Part shown: in pieces, positions 1 through 13,546 of the stretch | Layout of the letters: each line of letters begins with the position of its first letter | How positions within the stretch are numbered: the first letter of the stretch is position 1 | From: a virus | DNA length: 13,546 bases | IMG/VR virus record: IMGVR_UViG_3300045988_094367 | Strand: one strand, 5' to 3' | Translations under genes and position numbers: made by a program | The notes under the pieces: generated by a model | The model's database searches: none | Told to the model about the DNA's origin: nothing | The model's input: only the letters and a program-made list of their open reading frames with translations

Positions 1-55
1 AAATAATGGTTGCAATAAATCCAAATAACTGCTATAATGAATATATCAAATGAAA
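1..55. repeat. Left inverted terminal repeat (ITR), 55 bp
   Basis: Positions 1-55 (aaataatggttgcaataaatccaaataactgctataatgaatatatcaaatgaaa) are the exact reverse complement of 13492-13546, checked base by base. Identity breaks at 56/13491. Confidence 0.95.
10..38 (+). promoter_or_regulatory. ITR-embedded sigma-A/sigma-70-type promoter copy, reading inward on the plus strand (antisense to the tail fibre gene)
   Basis: TTGCAA (10-15), 17-nt spacer ending in TGc (30-32, extended -10), TATAAT (33-38). It is the same sequence as the right-end early promoter because it lies inside the ITR. Confidence 0.45.
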
Positions 56-1720: not shown

Positions 1721-2359
1721 TTAATAAACCATCAAACAAAAATTCTCAACAAAGCTCTCTGCAATGATATCATAAATATTAAACATCGCAACTTCTCTTT
1801 CACTTTGTATCATCTGCTGAGAAGTAGTAACACCAATATTTCCATGCGCTCTACCTGTCCTCTTGTGCGTCAAGTCTCGCTTGCTCGTTCCACTCTCTTT
1901 CTCCGTTGTGCTTCCTGAACCATTCGTAGTAGTATCACTATCACTGATTTCTTTTGCATGATCTGCAAGCCCAGCGTTGAAAGCAGTATTCTGCTCTGTC
2001 ACTGTTCCACTGTTCATTACTTCATTAGTAATAGTATTCTTAACATCATTGTTTCTTGAATTCGTTCCTGTCTCAGCATCCGTATCAGTCCAGTCTTCCA
2101 TACGGTCATAGTTTTCAATCGGGTTATATACCAGTAACATAGTATCATATAACTTTTTCCAGTTATATTGATGCTTCCTGCTCCACATTCCAATCCGCAT
2201 AGCAAAAAACTCAAGATTCGGATAAAGTACTTCCATTTCCCTTGACCTCAAGCATATAGTATCAATTGCAATCTGTTTATCCATCCCATCAGGAACATTA
2301 AACTCATTGAAAAGAGTATCCTTATAATTATACAGCCCTTCTACTGTCAATAGTGCCAT
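1721..2359 (-). CDS. Putative lower collar / head-tail adaptor protein (phi29 gp11 position)
   Basis: 212-aa ORF between the connector and the tail fibre. [10 protein letters not shown] lies upstream of the ATG at 2359, and the ORF overlaps the connector gene by 32 nt. Function is assigned by position only. Confidence 0.45.
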   Translation of the reverse strand: MALLTVEGLYNYKDTLFNEFNVPDGMDKQIAIDTICLRSREMEVLYPNLEFFAMRIGMWSRKHQYNWKKLYDTMLLVYNPIENYDRMEDWTDTDAETGTNSRNNDVKNTITNEVMNSGTVTEQNTAFNAGLADHAKEISDSDTTTNGSGSTTEKESGTSKRDLTHKRTGRAHGNIGVTTSQQMIQSEREVAMFNIYDIIAESFVENFCLMVY

Positions 2360-3287
2360 TCTTCACACCCCCCTTATTCTTTGAATTCGGATCATGTCTC
2401 CAGTTAACACTCACCTCAACATTAAACATTTTCCTAACATCTTCACAGCTTTTTTTCCAGCCATCGAGCCACATTTCCATTCTGGTGCTTGTCTCAACGT
2501 CATTGCTTTCTGCTTCACTGGAAATCATTCTTTCTTTCTTGTCACTTCTTGCACTGGGAATTCCGATCTCTGTGCAAAAAAGTTCTTCGAGTCTCCTGAG
2601 AGTGTCCAGAACATCACCGGCAATGTAGTTTTGCCGTAAGTTGTTCACGAAATAATCCCACGGTTCTTCCGTAGTATCTCCCCTCTGAATCCGAAGCTTT
2701 TCATCATAGAAAACTGCAAGTTCACCACGCATGACCTGATCCATTACTTTTTTAAGTGCTTCTGCACCAGCTTTGTTCCTTGCCCTGAACACATATGCAA
2801 GTTTAGAGTTCATCACATTCATGTCTAGGGATTCCATAGCGATAGCCATTTCATCCGCATACCTTCCAATCAAATCCATGATGCCGCAATAATCAGACGT
2901 ACATTTAAACAATACACACTGTTCACCGATTACGGGTTCGAGCACACCTTTAAGCAGAGGATTACTAATTACTGCTTGTGCAGGACGATAGAAAACATTG
3001 TAACCTTTAAGCGTACATCCCTGTGGAATCACACCGAATTTGTCAGTGTTAATGATCGCAACCGTCCCCCAGCAATATAGGCAATACAAAAAATAATCCT
3101 TGTCCCAATTATCCGGTACGCTCCATTTCATCACAGAAATTGCTTTCTGTAAAAGGTATCTCTGAAAGTACCAGAACAAACCAGTGTTCTTGCAATGGTT
3201 TGTACTCGGACTGATAGAACTATTGTATTGATTAATATAGTTATACATTACAGGTGCTCCTACACCAACATAATCGCATCCATACAT
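2328..3287 (-). CDS. Head-tail connector / portal (upper collar), phi29 gp10-like
   Basis: 319 aa (phi29 gp10 is about 309 aa). The C-terminal segment IGIPSARSDKKERMISSEAESNDVETS...NVEVSVNWR resembles, from memory, phi29 gp10 [28 protein letters not shown]...NVKVKFR. SD AGGAGAG lies upstream of the ATG at 3287. Confidence 0.8.
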   Translation of the reverse strand: MYGCDYVGVGAPVMYNYINQYNSSISPSTNHCKNTGLFWYFQRYLLQKAISVMKWSVPDNWDKDYFLYCLYCWGTVAIINTDKFGVIPQGCTLKGYNVFYRPAQAVISNPLLKGVLEPVIGEQCVLFKCTSDYCGIMDLIGRYADEMAIAMESLDMNVMNSKLAYVFRARNKAGAEALKKVMDQVMRGELAVFYDEKLRIQRGDTTEEPWDYFVNNLRQNYIAGDVLDTLRRLEELFCTEIGIPSARSDKKERMISSEAESNDVETSTRMEMWLDGWKKSCEDVRKMFNVEVSVNWRHDPNSKNKGGVKNGTIDSRRAV

Positions 3288-3293
3288 TATAAA

Positions 3294-4409
3294 TCACTCT
3301 CCTGTCGTAAAATATTTATACCATGCTCTAGCATATCCAGCACGCTCCTGATGTATACTAGCTGGTCTTTCATAATTAGCTTGGAATGCTAGTGCAAGAT
3401 ATCCGGCATCCTGGGTGCTGGCACTCCACTGTTTCCAACTCAACGGATAATCACCAGTACTATACCATTGGGGTTCAATTCCCCAGTTTTTAATCCCACT
3501 GCTTTGTTGGAACTCTGCAAAAATAACACTCAACTGCTTTTGACCATCATACCAATCATCGTGAGAACCATACAGGACGTCAAGAACGTGATACAAGTCT
3601 GTCGGTGGTGTCCACTGTACAAGTCCATGACCTGTTCCACCAACTTCTATCAGGTTTGGGTTGAATGTAGATTCCTGTTGAATGTTTCCGCAAAGCCCAG
3701 CTATTGAATTTACTGACCATCCTTGAGCTAAAAAGTAAGCTTTTATTGTATTCGCATTGTTGATAGCTTTAGGATTATTTCCGCACAGTTCGGCAGTTGG
3801 ATTACCAAAATATTCACTAGAACCACCAGCAATCCAGTTACCACCAGAAAATGGAAACCTGTAACAGTGAGTGTATACTAGTCCACTTTGAATTGGATAT
3901 GTGTTAATACTTACCTGATCTGCTAAAGGTCTGCCACTTTTTCCATGTGCGCCCATTGTATGACCGCCATTCTCAGTATCATGTACAATCTCCGTATGCT
4001 GATGCTGACTTGAGTTTACTACCAAAATATCACCAGTCTGGAACTCAAAAGTTGAAAAGTCGTTAATGATAATTTCTTTGAATCCAAGTTGTTTTAATGT
4101 TGATCCCATCGTATAAGTTGTAAAAGGCCATGCGCTTAAATTGATCTCAAAACCAGCATGACCTAAACCATACCATACAAATGATGAACAGTCATAATAC
4201 GTGATTCCATTAATGGTTTGTTCGTTTCTGTAATCCTGATCGTATCCAACGTTTGGATCATTACACTTTTCAATCCACCAACTCACAGCCTGAGACATTA
4301 ATCCACCAATTCCACCATAACCGCCGCTGCCCCACGGGTTCTGTCCAGCATTCGCACTTGTCATTAATGCAAGAAACAATGAAATGTTACTTGCTGGAAA
4401 ACTACGCAT
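3294..4409 (-). CDS. Two-domain peptidoglycan hydrolase: N-terminal NlpC/P60 (CHAP-like) cysteine peptidase plus C-terminal phage tail lysozyme-like domain. Likely tail-associated (phi29 gp13 role).
   Basis: Start chosen at the ATG at 4409 (MRSFPAS...) because GGAAGGTGG lies about 9 nt upstream and it overlaps the stop of the upstream gene. The track ORF extends to 4532 without an SD. The YDCSSFV Cys codon is at 4188-4190 and the HTEIV His codon at 3996-3998 (NlpC/P60-type pair). The GLCGNIQQESTFNP...GHGLVQWT Glu codon is at 3672-3674 (phage tail lysozyme-type motif). Confidence 0.75.
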   Translation of the reverse strand: MRSFPASNISLFLALMTSANAGQNPWGSGGYGGIGGLMSQAVSWWIEKCNDPNVGYDQDYRNEQTINGITYYDCSSFVWYGLGHAGFEINLSAWPFTTYTMGSTLKQLGFKEIIINDFSTFEFQTGDILVVNSSQHQHTEIVHDTENGGHTMGAHGKSGRPLADQVSINTYPIQSGLVYTHCYRFPFSGGNWIAGGSSEYFGNPTAELCGNNPKAINNANTIKAYFLAQGWSVNSIAGLCGNIQQESTFNPNLIEVGGTGHGLVQWTPPTDLYHVLDVLYGSHDDWYDGQKQLSVIFAEFQQSSGIKNWGIEPQWYSTGDYPLSWKQWSASTQDAGYLALAFQANYERPASIHQERAGYARAWYKYFTTGE

Positions 4410-5778
4410 AGTATACACCACCTTCCAAGTATTGTTTGATCTTTTCTTTTTCAGTTCTGGTTGCTCCTGATACAATGATATTTCCATTCTCAACCACATA
4501 GTATCCAGCACCGAGTTCTGACATAGTGCCATTTTTCATATATGGTCTTCCGTTGTCTGATCTGTCCTCATCAACTAATTTATAGAAAATTTCGTTGATA
4601 ACTGGTGCACTTGCAATACTAATCAGTGAACTATTCGCACCTTTTGTGTTAACATCGGGAATCGCACTCTCAACAGCATTTGCAATTCCAACCGCAGAGC
4701 CGATAAAATTTCCAGTAAAAAATGACGCAATACTTCCGATAATATCACCACCAGATTGTATCACATTTGTTCGCAAATCACTAACTTGAATGTTCACACC
4801 AACTTGTGCATACGCGGAATATAATGATATATCACCAGAGTTAACAGTTATATATCCTATTCCACTCATACAATCAACAATTTTGTTAACTGTTACGGTT
4901 GATGATGTACCAACTTTTCCCCCGTCTATCTCGAATGAACCCCACGGATTAATGATTATTCTGATGTGTCGATAGGGTGAAGAATTTAAAAAAGTTCCTC
5001 GGGATACTTGAGGATGCTGTGTTACCGGCATTGTAAAAGTTTTTCTGTAAAATGGCAGATTACTCAGTTTGTATGCATCCACTGTCACTTCCCAAAAACC
5101 GAACTTGACTGCCGTTACTTTTTTACTTCCAACATCAGCATTAAATGGAAACCACATCACACTTGTCAAATACTGGAATGGATTGAAAAGACATTTTAGT
5201 AAGCTTTCTGTGATCTGCTGACCTGAGATATTCGCCCAGTCAATTGTCGAAAAGATTTTATTGCAGAAAGAAGCAAATTTTGTGGGTGTGAATCCGTAAA
5301 AGTTAGTCAATCCATCTTCGCCAACAATACCACATACAAATGAACCTTGTGAAAGTCCATATTCACTTGCCGGAAAAGCACCATCAGTAACCAGTGTATG
5401 TGTCATATCTGGTGTTGATAATGCAGGATAGAGTGTATCCATTATATCACCGTCATAAGACGTGGACGATCTCAGGAAATACAAGTTAGTGCCTGCAATC
5501 GTATCACGGTACGATGCCAGCACATCAACAGAACAAAATGCAACCCATGTGTTATTAATATACTGCCAATCCTCTATCCAATATGATCGTTCACCAAAAT
5601 CGGGAATTGTGCAATAGTTCCAGCTAGGAACACTCCCACCATTTCTCAAAATTATCTGTGGCTTCTCAATGGTACAAGATTCATTTATGTTACAGTTAAT
5701 GGCGGTAACTGTACCGCCAACAACCGCTGTCGAATTGACTTTTTTGTCTGCTGTCTTAAAGTTTACAGTAACCGCCAT
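4402..5778 (-). CDS. Putative tail knob / distal tail tube protein (phi29 gp9 position) with a hydrophobic Gly-rich segment
   Basis: 458-aa ORF directly after the capsid gene. SD AGGGGGT lies 7 nt upstream of the ATG at 5778. The segment SGGDIIGSIASFFTGNFIGSAVGIANAVESAIP (about 4650-4760) is hydrophobic and Gly-rich. Function is assigned by gene order. Confidence 0.5.
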   Translation of the reverse strand: MAVTVNFKTADKKVNSTAVVGGTVTAINCNINESCTIEKPQIILRNGGSVPSWNYCTIPDFGERSYWIEDWQYINNTWVAFCSVDVLASYRDTIAGTNLYFLRSSTSYDGDIMDTLYPALSTPDMTHTLVTDGAFPASEYGLSQGSFVCGIVGEDGLTNFYGFTPTKFASFCNKIFSTIDWANISGQQITESLLKCLFNPFQYLTSVMWFPFNADVGSKKVTAVKFGFWEVTVDAYKLSNLPFYRKTFTMPVTQHPQVSRGTFLNSSPYRHIRIIINPWGSFEIDGGKVGTSSTVTVNKIVDCMSGIGYITVNSGDISLYSAYAQVGVNIQVSDLRTNVIQSGGDIIGSIASFFTGNFIGSAVGIANAVESAIPDVNTKGANSSLISIASAPVINEIFYKLVDEDRSDNGRPYMKNGTMSELGAGYYVVENGNIIVSGATRTEKEKIKQYLEGGVYYA

Positions 5779-7426: not shown

Positions 7427-7668
7427 ATCTTGTAATCCTTCCTGAGATATTTTTTATGAGAAAATCCTGTCGAAATGATTCCGTTGTGTTCGTAGGTGAC
7501 CGCATACCATTCACCGGAATAGCATCCAAGACAGATGCATTTTCCATTTTTCGGAATCTCTGCAATCACTTCACCATCCGTGTTAGGTTCTGCCCGAACC
7601 ATCAAAGGATATTGTGAGGTTTTCACAATATATACACCCCGAATATCCTTGTTATATTCGATTTTCAT
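7423..7668 (-). CDS. Stand-alone bacterial SH3 (SH3b/SH3_3) cell-wall-binding-type domain protein
   Basis: 81 aa. YIVKTSQYPLMVRAEPNTDGEVIAEIPKNGKCICLGCYSGEWYAVTYEHNGIISTGFSHKKYL fits the SH3_3 pattern (LxVR...G..v......W..V...G..G.....YL). SD AGGAGTG is present, with ATGA overlaps on both sides. Confidence 0.7.
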   Translation of the reverse strand: MKIEYNKDIRGVYIVKTSQYPLMVRAEPNTDGEVIAEIPKNGKCICLGCYSGEWYAVTYEHNGIISTGFSHKKYLRKDYKI

Positions 7669-7862
7669 TCATCATCACTCCTATTTATGTGTTCTGTCAA
7701 CTTTGTTAGAGCAACAGTATTGTTATTGAGAGCATCTGTCATTTTTGCCATTTCTTCCTTGTGTGCGTCTGTCTCTTTGAGCCATAAGTAAAAAGCTGCA
7801 ATCAGACAAGCGCAAGGTACTCCAATGTTACTAATCAGTGTTGAAATTGCGTTAACATCCAT
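7665..7862 (-). CDS. Putative holin, BhlA/UviB-like (single N-terminal TM helix plus charged helical tail)
   Basis: 65 aa. The TM-like segment ISTLISNIGVPCACLIAAFYLWL is followed by KETDAHKEEMAKM... and an acidic C-terminus. SD AAGGAGA lies 7 nt upstream of the ATG at 7862. It is the first gene after the non-coding island. Confidence 0.55.
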   Translation of the reverse strand: MDVNAISTLISNIGVPCACLIAAFYLWLKETDAHKEEMAKMTDALNNNTVALTKLTEHINRSDDE

Positions 7863-7895
7863 AGCATTTTCTCCTTATTATAAAATATTTTATTT

Positions 7896-8042
7896 GTGGC
7901 AATAAGTCACAAAGCTGTGACACCTTGTGACCTCTCGTGGATTAACTGACACAAATCCTGAGCTGTGCGAACTCATGCACACTGATCTGATACGATCCAC
8001 GCTCCCAACGTGATGCACATGTGCAGCGTTCAGTTGTCCACT
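7896..8042 (-). ncRNA. Candidate structured non-coding RNA (pRNA-like packaging RNA, or a structured 5' leader of the late operon)
   Basis: The 211-nt gap 7863-8073 has no credible ORF. By hand count, 68 of the 140 nt in 7901-8040 are G+C, against very AT-rich flanks. An 11-bp all-Watson-Crick interrupted helix (8041-8037/7937-7941 and 8035-8030/7944-7949) encloses hairpins 8029-8008 and 7983-7961. A further hairpin at 7921-7906 (GUCACA GCUU UGUGAC) is followed by UUAUU. A candidate promoter places +1 at about 8042/8041, at the base of the closing helix. Confidence 0.35.
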
Positions 8043-8048
8043 ACATAT

Positions 8049-8077
8049 ACAATAACATATTAAAAATAATTAGTCAA
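8049..8077 (-). promoter_or_regulatory. Candidate promoter for the non-coding island and/or the late operon
   Basis: On the minus strand: TTGACT (8077-8072, overlapping the ATPase TGA stop), a 17-nt spacer ending in TGt (extended -10), then TATTGT (8054-8049). The -10 matches only 4/6, so this is tentative. Confidence 0.3.
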
Positions 8078-9123
8078 TACTTGTCTTTAAAATAATTTTC
8101 AAATAATGATTTGCTTGTGATATCTTCAAATCGTATCTTATTAGACAAGTACATATCCCACAAATATACAAAGTCTCTGCGAAAAGCTTTTACATCCTTG
8201 TCCGTATTTGTGTATACCGGTGGTGTTCCTGAATTGTGGCGCGTGACATATATCATGTCTTTTCGCTTGTGCTGGTAAATTGTGACTGCATCCATTCTGC
8301 ATAATGGCAGCAGCTCTTTAATATTCATGGTTTTAATCCCCGAATAATCAGCGGAATAAAATTCATTGCCGAGTGCCATTCTGTTAAATGTGGAATTTTC
8401 ACCCGACATTTTGTACAATGCGGTCTCTTTTTTCTTCTCGGATATCGGAGAATCGAAAAGATTGAAAAGTGCAATCCCACGATCACGCATGATAGAGACG
8501 GACTGTTTTGATATATCCATACTAGATACTTTTTCCATTAAATCATTCTCGATAAACATATTACAGGATAAATTTTCTGAGTTGGAGAACATAAGAAACT
8601 GTATTGGTTCGTACCCCTCTAACTCACGATTTCGGTTCATGGTTTCGTATGCATTCTTGAATGCATATCCTGCATTTTCCACTTTTCGCTCTCGCTTTTC
8701 TGGAATAAATTCATCATAAATTCCAATTTCTACGTCTGACGCGTCGAATCCTCGCAAGTTAGCAAAAGTATTTAATGCTATGGCATAACCAAGGATTTCA
8801 CCTTTATATATTAGTTTACCATTTTCGTCTGTTTCTGTATGGTAAAATCCGGCAACATTTTTACCGATACTTTTCGGGTAAATTGACCATCCCATATCTT
8901 TATTCAGTTTTTTAAACGGTGACAATTCAGGAATTTTGATTGTATCAACCTGTGCTTGTAGTGATCTCATATAGACAAAAATCTTTTTATGCTCAATGCA
9001 GTACTTTAGTCCACCATATGTTTTCCCAGTTCCACGTCCACCCCAGATATAGTTGAATTTTTGCCCGTATCCTAAAACAGCAGGTATTGATAAATACCCG
9101 CTGTCTAAATATAAACTCTTCAT
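8074..9123 (-). CDS. DNA encapsidation (packaging) ATPase, phi29 gp16-like
   Basis: 349 aa. Walker A is GGRGTGKT (9019-9042) and Walker B-like is IGIYDEFIPEK. The layout and motifs parallel, from memory, phi29 gp16 (GARGIGKSY ... IVFDEFIREK ... RNRE ... LSN). SD GAGGAAG is present, with a TAATG overlap with the upstream gene. Confidence 0.85.
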   Translation of the reverse strand: MKSLYLDSGYLSIPAVLGYGQKFNYIWGGRGTGKTYGGLKYCIEHKKIFVYMRSLQAQVDTIKIPELSPFKKLNKDMGWSIYPKSIGKNVAGFYHTETDENGKLIYKGEILGYAIALNTFANLRGFDASDVEIGIYDEFIPEKRERKVENAGYAFKNAYETMNRNRELEGYEPIQFLMFSNSENLSCNMFIENDLMEKVSSMDISKQSVSIMRDRGIALFNLFDSPISEKKKETALYKMSGENSTFNRMALGNEFYSADYSGIKTMNIKELLPLCRMDAVTIYQHKRKDMIYVTRHNSGTPPVYTNTDKDVKAFRRDFVYLWDMYLSNKIRFEDITSKSLFENYFKDKY

Positions 9124-9855: not shown

Positions 9856-9884
9856 ATTATAGTACTAATATTAAATTCTGTCAA
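9856..9884 (-). promoter_or_regulatory. Perfect-consensus sigma-A/sigma-70 promoter (TTGACA-17-TATAAT) overlapping the DNA polymerase stop codon
   Basis: The minus strand reads cgcTTGACAgaatttaatattagtacTATAATat. The -35 is at 9884-9879, the spacer at 9878-9862 (17 nt), the -10 at 9861-9856. The polymerase stop TAA is at 9873-9871. Confidence 0.6.
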
Positions 9885-12597: not shown

Positions 12598-12826
12598 AAT
12601 CTACTGTTTCACCGTCCTTTACAAGATGAAAATGTATCGGTCTAAAGTTCATACCATTTTCTACAATGTATTGCTGTACAATTGACATTGCAATTATGCC
12701 GGTATAAGCTTCAACATAAACATAATTACATTTCCCTTCACAATCTTTTTTCAATATATTCTGAGTGTTCAGTGGTTTTATAAATACTCTATACCATGAT
12801 TTTTTAGTGTTCATCGGTCTTGCCAT
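12575..12826 (-). CDS. Small early hypothetical protein (83 aa)
   Basis: The track ORF begins at 12847. I prefer the ATG at 12826 (MARPMNTKK...) because GGGGTGA lies about 9 nt upstream. It overlaps both neighbours by 23 nt. No motif recognised. Confidence 0.5.
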   Translation of the reverse strand: MARPMNTKKSWYRVFIKPLNTQNILKKDCEGKCNYVYVEAYTGIIAMSIVQQYIVENGMNFRPIHFHLVKDGETVDYGRTINQ

Positions 12827-13016
12827 TGTTATATTCACCCCATTCATTTACACATTCTATTAAATCATCAAAACTGGTTACCATTGACCACTGGAATTTA
12901 GGTATACATCCAAAACAGTCAATGAACTTTTTGCACTCTGACGCATAATCGCATTTTGAACACTCGAATGCAACAGCGTTGCACTCGAATGTTATTTCAA
13001 AAAATGATACTGCCAC
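12804..13016 (-). CDS. Small Cys-rich early protein, possible zinc-ribbon (two CxxC pairs)
   Basis: 70 aa with a GTG start at 13016 and a GGGGGG run 9 nt upstream. It has seven Cys (C12, C19, C22, C28, C34, C37, C55), including C19-x2-C22 and C34-x2-C37. Confidence 0.5.
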   Translation of the reverse strand: MAVSFFEITFECNAVAFECSKCDYASECKKFIDCFGCIPKFQWSMVTSFDDLIECVNEWGEYNNGKTDEH

Positions 13017-13491: not shown

Positions 13492-13546
13492 TTTCATTTG
13501 ATATATTCATTATAGCAGTTATTTGGATTTATTGCAACCATTATTT
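13492..13546. repeat. Right inverted terminal repeat (ITR), 55 bp
   Basis: Exact reverse complement of positions 1-55. Confidence 0.95.
13509..13537 (-). promoter_or_regulatory. Early promoter embedded in the right ITR
   Basis: On the minus strand: TTGCAA (13537-13532), a 17-nt spacer ending in TGc, then TATAAT (13514-13509). It reads into the first early gene, with a predicted +1 near 13502, SD at 13486-13491 and ATG at 13477. Confidence 0.6.

What the first reader, a model, noticed from the sequence alone, without database searches (positions are those of the whole stretch)
7863..8077. GC-enriched, ORF-free, highly self-complementary island after the packaging ATPase gene: candidate pRNA-like RNA
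This is the only sizeable non-coding gap in an otherwise gap-free genome.

**Composition.** By hand count, 68 of the 140 nt in 7901-8040 are G+C. The flanks are far lower: 4/30 in 8041-8070 and 9/40 in 7861-7900.

**Fold on the transcribed (minus) strand.**
- 5'-GUGGA-C-AACUGA (8041-8030) pairs with UCAGUU-AA-UCCAC (7949-7937), giving 11 Watson-Crick pairs.
- This helix closes a domain of about 105 nt containing two hairpins.
- Hairpin 8029-8008 has its apex in the palindrome UGCACAUGUGCA.
- Hairpin 7983-7961 has the stem GUGC/GCAC.
- Both apices expose the self-complementary CAUG.
- Alternative pairings exist: GUGGAU 8000-7995 with AUCCAC 7942-7937, and GAUC/GAUC. These hint at a junction or pseudoknot.
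- A 3' hairpin at 7921-7906 follows.

**Promoter.** A candidate promoter (TTGACT-17-TGtTATTGT, 8077-8049) would start transcription at the first base of the closing helix.

**Comparison with phi29.** The phi29 packaging motor needs a 174-nt pRNA. Its 5' and 3' ends pair, its loops make intermolecular contacts, and it bridges the connector and the gp16 ATPase. To my knowledge pRNA has been demonstrated only in the Bacillus phi29 group. A divergent pRNA next to the ATPase gene of this distant miniature relative would be new.

**Alternatives.** It could be a structured 5' leader or processing site of the late operon, or an operator (GTCACA-N4-TGTGAC).
Basis: partly seen in the sequence, partly recalled or inferred. 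Interest (0 to 1): 0.85.

Follow-up and report, generated by a model that had tools for sequence, protein, structure and literature searches.

The report
Packaging-RNA-like gene in gut phage
A tiny phi29-like phage from the human gut carries, just after its DNA-packaging ATPase gene, a conserved folded RNA of about 107 nt built on the same plan as the phi29 "prohead RNA", a motor part so far reported only in Bacillus phages.

Summary
The gap 7863-8073 is real and is the only large non-coding stretch in a complete 13,546-bp phi29-like genome with a 55-bp terminal repeat. On the gene-sense (minus) strand it holds a conserved sigma70-type promoter (8077-8049), a 107-nt structured RNA (8042-7936) and a second hairpin (7932-7905).

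The two local hairpins are not. Those bases instead form a long-range helix and a bulge-to-loop pairing.

The resulting plan is: 5'/3' helix, three-way junction, C helix, 5'-side bulge, E hairpin(s), and a D hairpin whose loop is complementary to the bulge. This is the plan of phi29 pRNA. It recurs next to gp16-type ATPase genes in at least ten divergent lineages, including the cultured Amedibacillus phage AD70P2. The bulge:loop pairing covaries fully (4-8 bp).

A descriptor written for this plan beats 1000 shuffles in 13 of 14 lineages (one shuffle in the other). It also picks the authentic pRNA as top hit in phi29.

The Rfam pRNA model does not match, the A helix is short, and the portal lacks phi29's basic N-terminus. 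No function has been tested. A late-operon leader role remains a live rival.

The parts
8049..8077 (-). Sigma70-type promoter: -35 TTGACT (8077-8072, overlapping the ATPase TGA stop), 17-nt spacer, TG-extended -10 TATTGT (8054-8049). The predicted start lies 7-8 nt downstream, at the base of helix P1.
   Evidence: It is conserved in all relatives and closer to consensus there (TTGACT-17-TGcTATAAT, 11/12). TTGACA-type sites precede the RNA in distant lineages.
7936..8042 (-). Core structured RNA (107 nt), pRNA-like domain.
   Evidence: The covariance model R1 matches at 95 bits. Of 38 pairs, 95.5% of cells are paired and 18 pairs change on both sides, against 8.1 +/- 1.4 in shuffles and 5 or fewer in slid controls. 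Blueprint energy is -27.5 kcal/mol, reached by 0 of 1000 shuffles and by no fold of the reverse complement.
8030..8041 (-). P1 (A-helix equivalent), 5' strand GUGGA-C-AACUGA.
   Evidence: It pairs with 7949-7937. Relatives have AAAGA-C-AAGUGU / RCACUU-AA-UCUUU and AAAAG-C-AAGUAA / UUACUU-AA-CUUUU.
7937..7949 (-). P1 3' strand UCAGUU-AA-UCCAC.
8020..8024 (-). C helix 5' strand (i) GCACA; pairs with 7981-7977.
   Evidence: RNAalifold predicts it independently. All cells are paired. L008 has GCAUA:UAUGC and L079 has GUACA:UGUAC.
7977..7981 (-). C helix 3' strand (j) UGUGC.
8015..8019 (-). Bulge segment k (right-hand-loop equivalent) UGUGC, directly 3' of the C helix 5' strand. It is complementary to the D-loop segment 7968-7964.
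   Evidence: Compensatory variants: UGUGC:GCACA (window), GUACA:UGUAC (L001 and clade 2), GGGUAA:UUACCC (L079).
7998..8012 (-). E hairpin 1: CACG-UUGGGAG-CGUG.
   Evidence: All cells are paired. L045 has the compensatory CAUG...CAUG.
7984..7997 (-). E hairpin 2: GAUC-GUAUCA-GAUC. This extra hairpin is absent from the compact lineages.
   Evidence: All 5 pairs change on both sides in relatives (GGACA/UGUCC, GAAUC/GAUUC, CCGG/CCGG).
7959..7975 (-). D hairpin: stem UGAG/CUCA, loop UUCGCACAG. The loop contains l = GCACA (7968-7964), the left-hand-loop equivalent.
   Evidence: RNAalifold predicts the stem. Pair 74:82 alternates U-A, U-G and C-G.
7905..7932 (-). Second domain: hairpin with a 9-bp stem (GUCACAAGG / CUUUGUGAC) and a conserved loop UGUCACAGC. 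It is terminator-like in relatives; here the U tract is weak (CUUAUUGCC).
   Evidence: Stem compensation is seen in L001, L006 and clade 2. The loop GUGUCAMAGC is kept in three clades. Clade 2 follows it with UUUUGUUU. The simple terminator scan finds nothing here in the window.
7871..7876 (-). Shine-Dalgarno AAGGAG of the first late gene (65-aa holin-like ORF 7665-7862).
8074..9123 (-). Packaging ATPase gene of the phi29 gp16 type, directly upstream of the RNA.
   Evidence: Pfam Podovirus_Gp16 at 1.5e-08. PHROG terminase. A profile of 11 relatives hits phi29 gp16 (7JQQ) over the N- and C-terminal domains at E=4e-28.

Best explanation
The gap encodes a discrete structured RNA on the gene-sense strand, transcribed from its own sigma70-type promoter that overlaps the ATPase stop codon.

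**Fold (shown by covariation).** The 5' and 3' ends pair (P1) and close a three-way junction.
- One arm is a 5-bp C helix. It is followed by a 5'-side bulge and one or two E hairpins.
- The other arm is a D hairpin. Its loop is complementary to the bulge.
- A second hairpin domain follows the core.

**Proposed function (inferred).** This RNA is the counterpart of phi29 prohead RNA. The P1 helix would dock the gp16-type ATPase for DNA packaging.

**Link to late genes (inferred).** In this genome the terminator-like hairpin has a weak U tract and no separate late promoter is evident. The same promoter therefore probably also feeds the late operon by read-through.

**Status of each step.**
- Shown: promoter conservation, fold, covariation, recurrence beside gp16-type ATPase genes, and equivalence of the plan with authentic pRNA.
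- Inferred: intermolecular pairing, prohead binding and a role in packaging.
For: **1. The phage is phi29-like.**
- It encodes a gp16-type ATPase, a phi29-type SSB, a p6-like protein, a phi29-type capsid protein and an upper-collar connector.
- It has a 55-bp inverted terminal repeat.

**2. The fold is supported.**
- Window family, A3 with 49 distinct sequences: 95.5% of cells paired; 18 of 38 pairs changed on both sides, against 8.1 in shuffles and 5 or fewer in slid controls.
- RNAalifold independently gives P1, the long-range C helix, E and D.
- G-U pairs (14:97, 36:42, 74:82) fit only the minus strand.

**3. The plan recurs** after the ATPase gene in lineages whose ATPases share only 26-40% identity with the window's. 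These include L079, L081 (AD70P2), L083, L084, L085, L086, L087 and L088.

**4. Bulge:loop covariation in the L086 family.** All 8 pairs are 100% paired and 6 of 8 change on both sides: AAAAGGAA:UUCCUUUU, AACAAGAG:CUCUUGUU, AAGUUAAG:CUUAACUU, AACAUAGA:UCUAUGUU, AACUUAGA:UCUAAGUU, AAGCAAAG:CUUUGCUU.
- Other lineages: AAUCA:UGAUU changes to AACCA:UGGUU (L084 family); GGGUAA:UUACCC; GUCG:CGAC; UGUGC:GCACA; AUCC:GGAU.

**5. Same element order as Rfam Phage_pRNA**, including a bulge on the 5' side only and an E stem that runs straight into C' (CS lines).

**6. The descriptor is specific.**
- In 14 lineages, 0 or 1 of 1000 dinucleotide shuffles reach the real energy.
- It is found in 79/79, 80/80 and 16/16 loci of three families.
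- Applied to phi29 bases 1-1500, the same descriptor, relaxed to allow a 1-nt bulge in the C helix, gives the authentic pRNA core (222-300) with AACC:GGUU as top hit (-23.7 kcal/mol against -8.9 for the next).

**7. Signs of a stand-alone RNA gene.**
- The predicted transcription start is at the base of P1 in all lineages.
- Clade 2 has a canonical hairpin + UUUUGUUU after the RNA, and a terminator that ends the ATPase operon inside the RNA promoter.
- In several lineages P1 is followed directly by a U run.
- L087 has a tRNA gene right after the RNA.

**8. Conservation pattern.** Junction sequences are not conserved between lineages; only the helices and the E loop C(G/A)GAA are. This fits a scaffold RNA better than a ligand pocket.
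Against: - Rfam Phage_pRNA (RF00044) gives no match at E<=10 in the window, in the 181-nt region alone, or in 12 relatives. It scores 145 bits on phi29.
- Model R2, built from the compact family, does not find phi29 pRNA. It gives only weak, though correctly placed, hits in other lineages (E 0.014-1.6).
- The A helix is 7-12 bp, against about 25 bp in phi29.
- The portal N-termini of the window phage and of AD70P2 lack the basic RKR cluster that binds pRNA in phi29 (the role of RKR is from my own knowledge).
- The bulge:loop pairing could equally be an intramolecular H-type pseudoknot. Sequence cannot tell.
- The RNA always sits at the early/late boundary. In the window its promoter is the only intergenic promoter-like site ahead of the late genes, so a cis-acting leader role is plausible.
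- Some related lineages (L245-L251, L082) show only a terminator hairpin after the ATPase gene.
- There are no expression data.
Confidence: 0.55

Rival explanations
1. The RNA is a cis-acting 5' leader of the late (lysis and structural) operon. A pseudoknotted three-way-junction RNA just after a strong promoter, followed by a terminator-like hairpin, would set the timing or level of late transcription. It could act as a riboswitch, as a target of a phage antiterminator, as a put-like RNA that modifies RNA polymerase, or as a processing or stability element. The bulge:loop pairing would be intramolecular.
For: - The RNA lies between the ATPase gene and the first late gene in every lineage where it was found after the ATPase gene.
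- In the window, P(8077-8049) is the only intergenic promoter-like site upstream of genes 7862-71.
- A hairpin follows the RNA and is a canonical terminator in clade 2.
- An H-type pseudoknot with a 1-2-nt first loop is geometrically possible (inference).
Against: - No known riboswitch or leader family matches.
- Junction nucleotides are not conserved between lineages, unlike ligand pockets.
- No conserved terminator/antiterminator alternative was seen (hand inspection only).
- Clades 2 and 3 carry extra palindromes and a conserved TGTGCTAATA after the terminator, suggesting a separate late promoter there.
- L087 has a tRNA gene between the RNA and the next ORF.
- The D stem covaries, as expected for a presented loop.
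- The plan matches pRNA element by element.
Confidence: 0.22
2. The RNA is a stand-alone trans-acting phage small RNA with a function other than packaging, for example control of host or phage mRNAs, a decoy for a host defence or RNA-binding protein, or a replication cofactor. It would share a three-way-junction fold with pRNA only by convergence.
For: - It has its own consensus-like promoter and terminator-like ends.
- Its shape is strongly conserved while its sequence is free to vary.
- The Rfam pRNA model does not match.
- The portal lacks the phi29 RNA-binding N-terminus.
Against: - The RNA is tightly linked to gp16-type ATPase genes in many divergent lineages.
- The specific pRNA plan, including the covarying bulge:D-loop pairing, has no known role in antisense or decoy RNAs.
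- There is no long conserved single-stranded seed; the E loop C(G/A)GAA is the only conserved motif.
Confidence: 0.13
3. The region is a DNA-level element (an operator such as GTCACA-N4-TGTGAC, a replication or packaging site) or a chance G+C-rich spacer with no RNA function.
For: - It contains palindromic DNA (UGCACAUGUGCA, GTCACA..TGTGAC).
- The MFE z-score is only about -2 on both strands.
Against: - Helices are kept through compensatory changes and G-U pairs that work on one strand only.
- The reverse complement gives no blueprint in 11 of 14 lineages.
- The palindromes themselves are not conserved, while the long-range pairings are.
- The plan recurs in unrelated sequence in ten lineages.
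Confidence: 0.03

Closest known systems
phi29 prohead/packaging RNA (pRNA; Rfam RF00044 Phage_pRNA) of Bacillus phages (phi29, PZA, B103, M2/Nf, SF5, GA-1, DLc1 group)
   Same: - It is encoded by a phi29-like, protein-primed podophage with a gp16-type ATPase.
- It has its own strong promoter, with transcription starting at the base of a helix formed by the 5' and 3' ends.
- It forms a three-way junction with the same order of elements: A, C, 5'-side bulge, E hairpin, C', D hairpin, A'.
- The bulge and D loop are complementary and covary.
- Sequence varies freely while shape is conserved.
- An extra 3' domain follows the core.
- It lies at the end of the early/replication gene block in the same orientation.
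   Different: - There is no match to the Rfam model.
- The core is 70-107 nt instead of about 117 nt.
- The A helix is 7-12 bp instead of about 25 bp.
- The loop pairing is 4-8 bp instead of 2-4 bp.
- The window family has two E hairpins.
- The gene lies directly after (possibly before, in CI461P1) the ATPase gene and ahead of the late genes, not at a genome end.
- The portal lacks the basic N-terminal RKR.
- The hosts are gut Firmicutes (Amedibacillus for the cultured relative), not Bacillus.
- Function is untested.
Riboswitch aptamers with a three-way junction and distal loop-loop or loop-junction pairing (purine, THF-I), followed by an intrinsic terminator
   Same: - The RNA sits just downstream of a promoter and upstream of genes.
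- A P1 helix closes a three-way junction.
- It has a covarying tertiary pairing.
- A terminator-like hairpin follows.
   Different: - No Rfam riboswitch matches.
- No conserved junction or pocket nucleotides exist across lineages.
- No evident antiterminator was seen.
- The tertiary pairing is long (up to 8 bp) and varies freely in sequence.
HK022 put RNAs (cis-acting antitermination RNAs just downstream of phage promoters)
   Same: It is a structured RNA immediately after a phage promoter, ahead of a terminator and of later genes.
   Different: put consists of two simple stem-loops. It has no 5'/3' closing helix and no loop-loop pairing, it comes from a lambdoid phage, and it shows no sequence or model similarity to this RNA.

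Membership tests
phi29-type prohead RNA (pRNA) | Encoded by a phi29-like phage with a gp16-type packaging ATPase and a protein-primed linear genome | tested here: met
   Pfam Gp16, Phi29_MCP, SSB and p6 hits. The ATPase profile hits 7JQQ gp16 at E=4e-28. The genome has a 55-bp inverted terminal repeat.
phi29-type prohead RNA (pRNA) | Match to the Rfam RF00044 covariance model (gathering score 100 bits) | tested here: not met
   No hit at E<=10 in the window, in 7880-8060 alone, or in 12 related loci. Positive control: phi29 scores 145 bits.
phi29-type prohead RNA (pRNA) | The 5' and 3' ends pair (A helix) and close a three-way junction with a C/E arm and a D hairpin | tested here: met
   window family; L086 family. 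The CS lines show the same order.
phi29-type prohead RNA (pRNA) | Right-hand loop (5'-side bulge of the C/E arm) complementary to the left-hand (D) loop, with covariation | tested here: met
   L086 family: 8 pairs, 100% paired, 6 with double changes. Window family: 3 of 6 pairs with double changes. At least 12 distinct complementary pairs across lineages.
phi29-type prohead RNA (pRNA) | The loop-loop pairing is intermolecular and builds a ring of RNAs | not testable with these tools
This needs two-mutant complementation or native gels.
phi29-type prohead RNA (pRNA) | Binds the prohead at the portal vertex and is required for DNA packaging | not testable with these tools
   No experimental data are available. 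The portal N-termini lack phi29's basic RKR cluster, so any contact would differ.
phi29-type prohead RNA (pRNA) | Long A helix (about 25 bp with bulges) that carries the ATPase | tested here: not met
   P1 is 11 pairs with a 1x2 internal loop in the window and 7 bp in the L086 family.
phi29-type prohead RNA (pRNA) | Separate transcription unit giving a discrete small RNA (own promoter and terminator) | tested here: inconclusive
   The promoter is conserved. A canonical terminator follows the RNA in clade 2, and U runs follow P1 in several lineages. In the window the U tract is weak and the scan finds no terminator.
Transcription-terminating riboswitch or regulatory leader | Conserved ligand-pocket or junction nucleotides across distant members | tested here: not met
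   Junction sequences differ completely between lineages. Only the E loop C(G/A)GAA recurs.
Transcription-terminating riboswitch or regulatory leader | Mutually exclusive terminator/antiterminator pairing that involves the P1 3' strand | tested here: inconclusive
   Hand inspection of the window and clade 2 found no conserved alternative pairing. No dedicated computation was run.
Transcription-terminating riboswitch or regulatory leader | Lies in the 5' untranslated region of the genes it would control | tested here: met
   The RNA sits between P(8077-8049) and the first late gene at 7862.

The most novel reading that the evidence does not exclude
Prohead RNA is not a peculiarity of Bacillus phages. 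A miniaturised family (core about 70-110 nt) would be a standard motor part of many phi29-like phages of human-gut Firmicutes. It would be encoded next to the gp16-type ATPase gene, form rings through 4-8-bp bulge:D-loop pairs, and dock on portals that lack the phi29 RKR motif. That would make an RNA-bridged packaging motor ancestral to, or at least widespread in, this phage lineage.
Probability: 0.5. Interest if true: 0.9.

Novelty: new variant of a known kind. Interest (0 to 1): 0.8.

Why it matters
- **Current state of knowledge.** pRNA is the only known RNA that is an integral part of a viral DNA-packaging motor. A 2016 review, a 2024 review and a 2025 database-wide Infernal search still place it only in phi29 and related Bacillus phages.
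- **Evolution of the motor.** A second, very divergent set of such RNAs in gut phages would show whether the RNA bridge is ancestral to phi29-like motors.
- **Minimal design.** These RNAs would show what a working pRNA minimally needs: a 7-bp A helix, a 70-nt core, and no RKR on the portal.
- **Test of ring models.** They would give dozens of natural right/left loop pairs for testing how the rings assemble.
- **RNA nanotechnology.** They would add new compact three-way-junction and kissing modules.
- **Direct testability.** A cultured relative (Amedibacillus phage AD70P2) makes the question experimentally accessible.
- **Value even if the RNA is a leader.** It would still be an undescribed, widespread, pseudoknotted RNA class at the early/late switch of the smallest tailed phages.

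Tried and rejected
1. **Rfam.** I scanned the whole window at E<=10, the 181-nt region alone, and 12 related loci. There was no pRNA, riboswitch or ribozyme hit. Only chance-level hits appeared (RAGATH-22 at E=2, UPD-PK2 at E=8).
2. **Exact 28-mer search of IMG/VR.** No hit, because even 99%-identical ATPase relatives differ in the RNA.
3. **Model R1** (window family) finds only the window, L001-L080 and nothing in distant lineages.
4. **Model R2** (L086 family) gives only weak but correctly placed hits elsewhere: L083 E=0.014, L089 E=0.06, L081 E=0.42, L237 E=0.64, and partial hits in L088-type loci. It does not find phi29 pRNA. Sequence-level homology to pRNA is therefore not shown.
6. **Operator reading of GTCACA-N4-TGTGAC** is rejected. 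Its stem compensates as RNA in another register.
7. **Hammerhead-like core.** I looked for one by eye (CUGANGA/GAAA); it is absent.
8. **Cultured Clostridium innocuum phages** CI461P1 and CI130P2 have only 34 nt after the ATPase gene. A candidate lies between the polymerase and ATPase genes behind a TTTACA-17-TGcTATAAT promoter. It is weak: -16 kcal/mol, 4 of 1000 shuffles as good, and coding regions give similar scores. I do not count it.
9. **Lineages L245-L251 and L082.** No RNA of this plan was found in the sequence held.
10. **My strict descriptor misses some true copies.** It misses copies with 3-bp or bulged C helices or 3-bp k:l (L083, L084, L087, half of the L084 family). It also gives chance hits down to about -19 kcal/mol in coding DNA.
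11. **Not used.** I did not run the protein-database, structure-prediction, metagenome or genome scans. They would not have decided between the rivals.
Full report
**Context**

The window is a complete linear genome of 13,546 bp. Its first 55 nt are the exact reverse complement of its last 55 nt. All genes lie on the minus strand.

It is a phi29-like podophage:
- The ORF 8074-9123 matches Pfam Podovirus_Gp16 and PHROG terminase.
- 9123-9554 matches the phi29 SSB, and 9558-9824 matches p6.
- 5790-6989 matches the phi29 major capsid protein.
- 2328-3287 is an upper-collar connector.
- A profile of 11 related ATPases hits phi29 gp16 (PDB 7JQQ) over both domains at E=4e-28.

The nearest public records are unannotated human-faecal contigs (MT837693, 96.6% identical). 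Cultured relatives are, at about 32% ATPase identity, Amedibacillus phages AD70P2 and AD70P3.

**The observation**

The 211-nt gap 7863-8073 is the only gap above 64 nt and has no ORF above 42 aa.

Folding energy alone is unremarkable: z = -2.1 on the minus strand and -2.2 on the plus strand. The case therefore rests on comparative evidence.

**Relatives and the fold of the window RNA**

A scan of IMG/VR with the ATPase gave 80 loci. They fall into three groups:
- clade 1: the window plus L001-L008, with a 211-nt gap;
- clade 2: L009-L078, with gaps of 263-283 nt;
- L079 and L080.

The first 134 nt of the gap are about 75% conserved between clades.

A covariance model of the core (R1) finds one copy per locus, at window 8042-7936. 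On the model-fitted alignment (49 distinct sequences) I counted my proposed structure:
- 95.5% of cells are paired, against 89.3% in shuffles.
- 18 of 38 pairs changed on both sides, against 8.1 +/- 1.4 in shuffles and 0-5 when partners are slid by 1-3 columns.
- The covariation score is 0.199, against 0.081.

RNAalifold on the plain MAFFT alignment independently predicts four elements:
- the closing helix;
- a long-range helix, 8024-8020 with 7981-7977;
- the hairpin CACG-UUGGGAG-CGUG;
- a hairpin with stem GAG/CUC (UGAG/CUCA in my structure).

Those are broken in L008 (GCAUA...UAUGC), in L001, L004, L006 and clade 2 (UGUACA...GUACA), and in L079 (GGGUAA...UUACCC). All of these keep the two crossing pairings i:j and k:l.

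Several pairs are G-U in many sequences, which works only on the minus strand.

**The plan of the RNA**

On the minus strand, 5' to 3':
- P1 5' strand: 8041-8030
- C helix 5' strand: 8024-8020
- bulge segment k: 8019-8015
- E hairpins: 8012-7998 and 7997-7984
- C helix 3' strand: 7981-7977
- D hairpin: 7975-7959, whose loop holds l (7968-7964), complementary to k
- a 9-nt joiner
- P1 3' strand: 7949-7937

A second hairpin (7932-7905) follows. Its stem covaries and its loop GUGUCAMAGC is conserved in all three clades.

**The same plan in distant lineages**

Lineages whose ATPases share 26-40% identity with the window's also have a TTGAC-type promoter at or after the ATPase stop. It is followed by an RNA of the same plan built from unrelated sequence. 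These lineages are MT836263, MT836115, MT836155, MT835901, MT836587, MT838040 and AD70P2.

The L086 family (80 IMG/VR loci, ATPase identity 59-99%) has a compact version of about 70 nt. Counted on alignment A2:
- 93% of cells are paired, against 73% in shuffles.
- 18 of 28 pairs have double changes.
- The score is 0.543, against 0.18 in shuffles and 0.137 or less when slid.
- The 8-bp bulge:loop helix is paired in every sequence, and 6 of its 8 pairs change on both sides.

The complementary variants are AAAAGGAA:UUCCUUUU, AACAAGAG:CUCUUGUU, AAGUUAAG:CUUAACUU, AACAUAGA:UCUAUGUU, AACUUAGA:UCUAAGUU and AAGCAAAG:CUUUGCUU.

In the L084 family, AAUCA:UGAUU changes to AACCA:UGGUU. Other lineages use GUCG:CGAC, UGUGC:GCACA and AUCC:GGAU.

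The only recurrent sequence motif is the E loop C(G/A)GAA.

**Comparison with authentic pRNA**

The Rfam Phage_pRNA model hits phi29 at 145 bits. Its consensus structure line reads:
- A helix;
- C helix;
- a 9-nt bulge on the 5' side only;
- E hairpin, running straight into the C helix 3' strand;
- UUU;
- D hairpin;
- A helix 3' strand.

The structure line of my model R2 has the same elements in the same order, including the 9-nt one-sided bulge.

I wrote a descriptor for this plan and ranked matches by nearest-neighbour energy. The descriptor requires:
- P1 of at least 5 bp;
- a C helix of at least 4 bp;
- a bulge of 4-12 nt;
- one or two E hairpins;
- a D hairpin;
- at least 4 Watson-Crick pairs between bulge and D loop.

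Results:
- In 13 lineages none of 1000 dinucleotide shuffles of the RNA reached the real energy; in the fourteenth, one did.
- The reverse complement gave no match in 11 of 14 lineages.
- At -20 kcal/mol or better, the descriptor finds the RNA in 79/79 window-family, 80/80 L086-family, 16/16 L088-family and 38/80 L084-family loci.
- Applied to the first 1,500 nt of phi29, with a 1-nt bulge allowed in the C helix, its top hit is the authentic pRNA core (222-300) with the known AACC:GGUU pairing. That hit scores -23.7 kcal/mol, against -8.9 for the next.

The architectural equivalence is therefore objective, not a recollection.

**What does not fit pRNA**

- RF00044 gives no hit at E<=10 in the window, in 7880-8060 alone, or in 12 related loci.
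- R2 does not find phi29 pRNA. It links the gut lineages to each other only weakly, though the hits are correctly placed.
- The A helix is 7-12 bp.
- The portal N-termini of the window phage and of AD70P2 are not basic. In phi29 an N-terminal RKR cluster binds pRNA (my own knowledge).
- Whether k:l forms within one molecule (an H-type pseudoknot is sterically conceivable) or between molecules cannot be read from sequence. The same ambiguity existed for phi29 until genetic complementation settled it (my own knowledge).

**Stand-alone gene or leader?**

For a stand-alone gene:
- The predicted transcription start is at the base of P1 in all lineages.
- In clade 2 a terminator-like hairpin with a T run ends the ATPase operon inside the RNA's promoter.
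- In clade 2 the RNA is followed by a canonical hairpin + UUUUGUUU, then by two TTTCACGTGAAA palindromes and TGTGCTAATAT. L079 shares TTGTGCTAATA. This suggests a separate, regulated late promoter.
- In several lineages P1 is followed directly by a U run.
- MT836587 has a tRNA gene right after the RNA.

For a leader:
- The window clade lacks the 55 nt that carry the palindromes.
- Its hairpin has a weak U tract, and the scan calls no terminator there.
- The only intergenic promoter-like sites on the coding strand are at the terminal repeat, at 9884-9856 and at 8077-8049.

In this genome, therefore, the RNA promoter very probably also drives the late genes. The two roles are not exclusive.

**Literature**

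- A 2016 review states that phi29 and its relatives are the only phages known to need an RNA for packaging (PMC5066667).
- A 2024 review of phi29-like phages, which includes Guelinviridae and the Amedibacillus phages, calls pRNA a feature unique to phi29 and related Bacillus phages (PMC11476376).
- A 2025 Infernal search of virus databases found 12 new pRNAs in searches seeded with the Bacillus-phage pRNAs phi29, GA1 and DLc1; the new ones named in the text are Bacillus cereus-group phages (PMC12670572).
- Searches of the held library for pRNA together with Guelinviridae, Picovirinae, gut or covariation found no report of such an RNA outside Bacillus phages.

**Verdict**

- A real, conserved, pseudoknot- or kissing-capable three-way-junction RNA: about 0.97.
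- It has the pRNA plan: about 0.85-0.9.
- It works as a packaging RNA: about 0.55.
- Main rival: a late-operon leader, about 0.2.

I file it as a new variant of a known kind, of high interest, and directly testable in the cultured phage AD70P2.

Noticed in passing
window 1-55 and 13492-13546: There is a perfect 55-bp inverted terminal repeat (AAATAATGGTTGCAATAAATCC...), so the window is a complete linear genome. Each repeat carries a promoter-like site TTGCAA-17-TGcTATAAT (10-38 on +, 13537-13509 on -). The left copy points into the antisense of the tail genes.
   Followed up: partly
window 9856-9884 (-): A perfect 12/12 sigma70 consensus (TTGACA-17-TATAAT) lies in the 46-nt gap between the 693-aa ORF (presumed DNA polymerase, no family hit) and the p6-like gene. 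It is probably the promoter of the p6-SSB-ATPase block.
   Followed up: no
window about 12930-12990 (-), within 12888-13014: A near-perfect hairpin of 14-15 bp, CAUUCGAGUGCAACGCUGUUGCAUUCGAGUG, lies inside or near the weak GTG-ORF 12804-13016. It is the only other place in the genome where my descriptor scores well (-26.4), and only because of this stem. Rfam gives a chance HLE hit there. Its function is unknown.
   Followed up: partly
L010 about 4245-4314 (clade-2 relatives L009-L078); L079 about 4250-4290: After the RNA terminator the relatives carry two copies of the palindrome TTTCACGTGAAA, then TGTGCTAATAT, just before the holin SD. L079 keeps a similar palindrome and TTGTGCTAATA. This looks like an activator- or repressor-controlled late promoter. 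The window clade has lost this 55-nt block.
   Followed up: partly
L010 4036-4069: A terminator-like hairpin AAGGACAAGT-ATTG-ACTTGTCCTT plus a T run spans the ATPase stop codon. It is interleaved with the -35 and spacer of the RNA promoter. The window has no equivalent hairpin.
   Followed up: no
L087 (MT836587.1) 3839-3911: A tRNA gene (65 bits) lies directly downstream of that phage's copy of the structured RNA, in the same gap after the ATPase gene.
   Followed up: no
L268 and L270 (Clostridium phages CI461P1, CI130P2) 1286-1434: In these cultured C. innocuum-group phages the 150-nt gap lies before the ATPase gene (after the DNA polymerase gene). It holds TTTACA-17-TGcTATAAT and a weak candidate of the same RNA plan (k:l ACCA:UGGU). 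It is not statistically convincing.
   Followed up: partly
L245-L251 and L082: Some related lineages (ATPase about 40% identical to L084 or to the window) have only a simple terminator hairpin after the ATPase gene. No RNA of this plan was found in the sequence held.
   Followed up: partly
window 4402-4532: The 412-aa ORF (lysin or tail-associated domains) and the 458-aa ORF overlap by 131 nt. This is unusually long for this otherwise tightly packed genome, so one start codon may be miscalled.
   Followed up: no
L219 (L084 family), upstream of its RNA: There is a tandem duplication of the promoter region (TATATTGACAAATTATTCAAATAA twice) ahead of the RNA.
   Followed up: no
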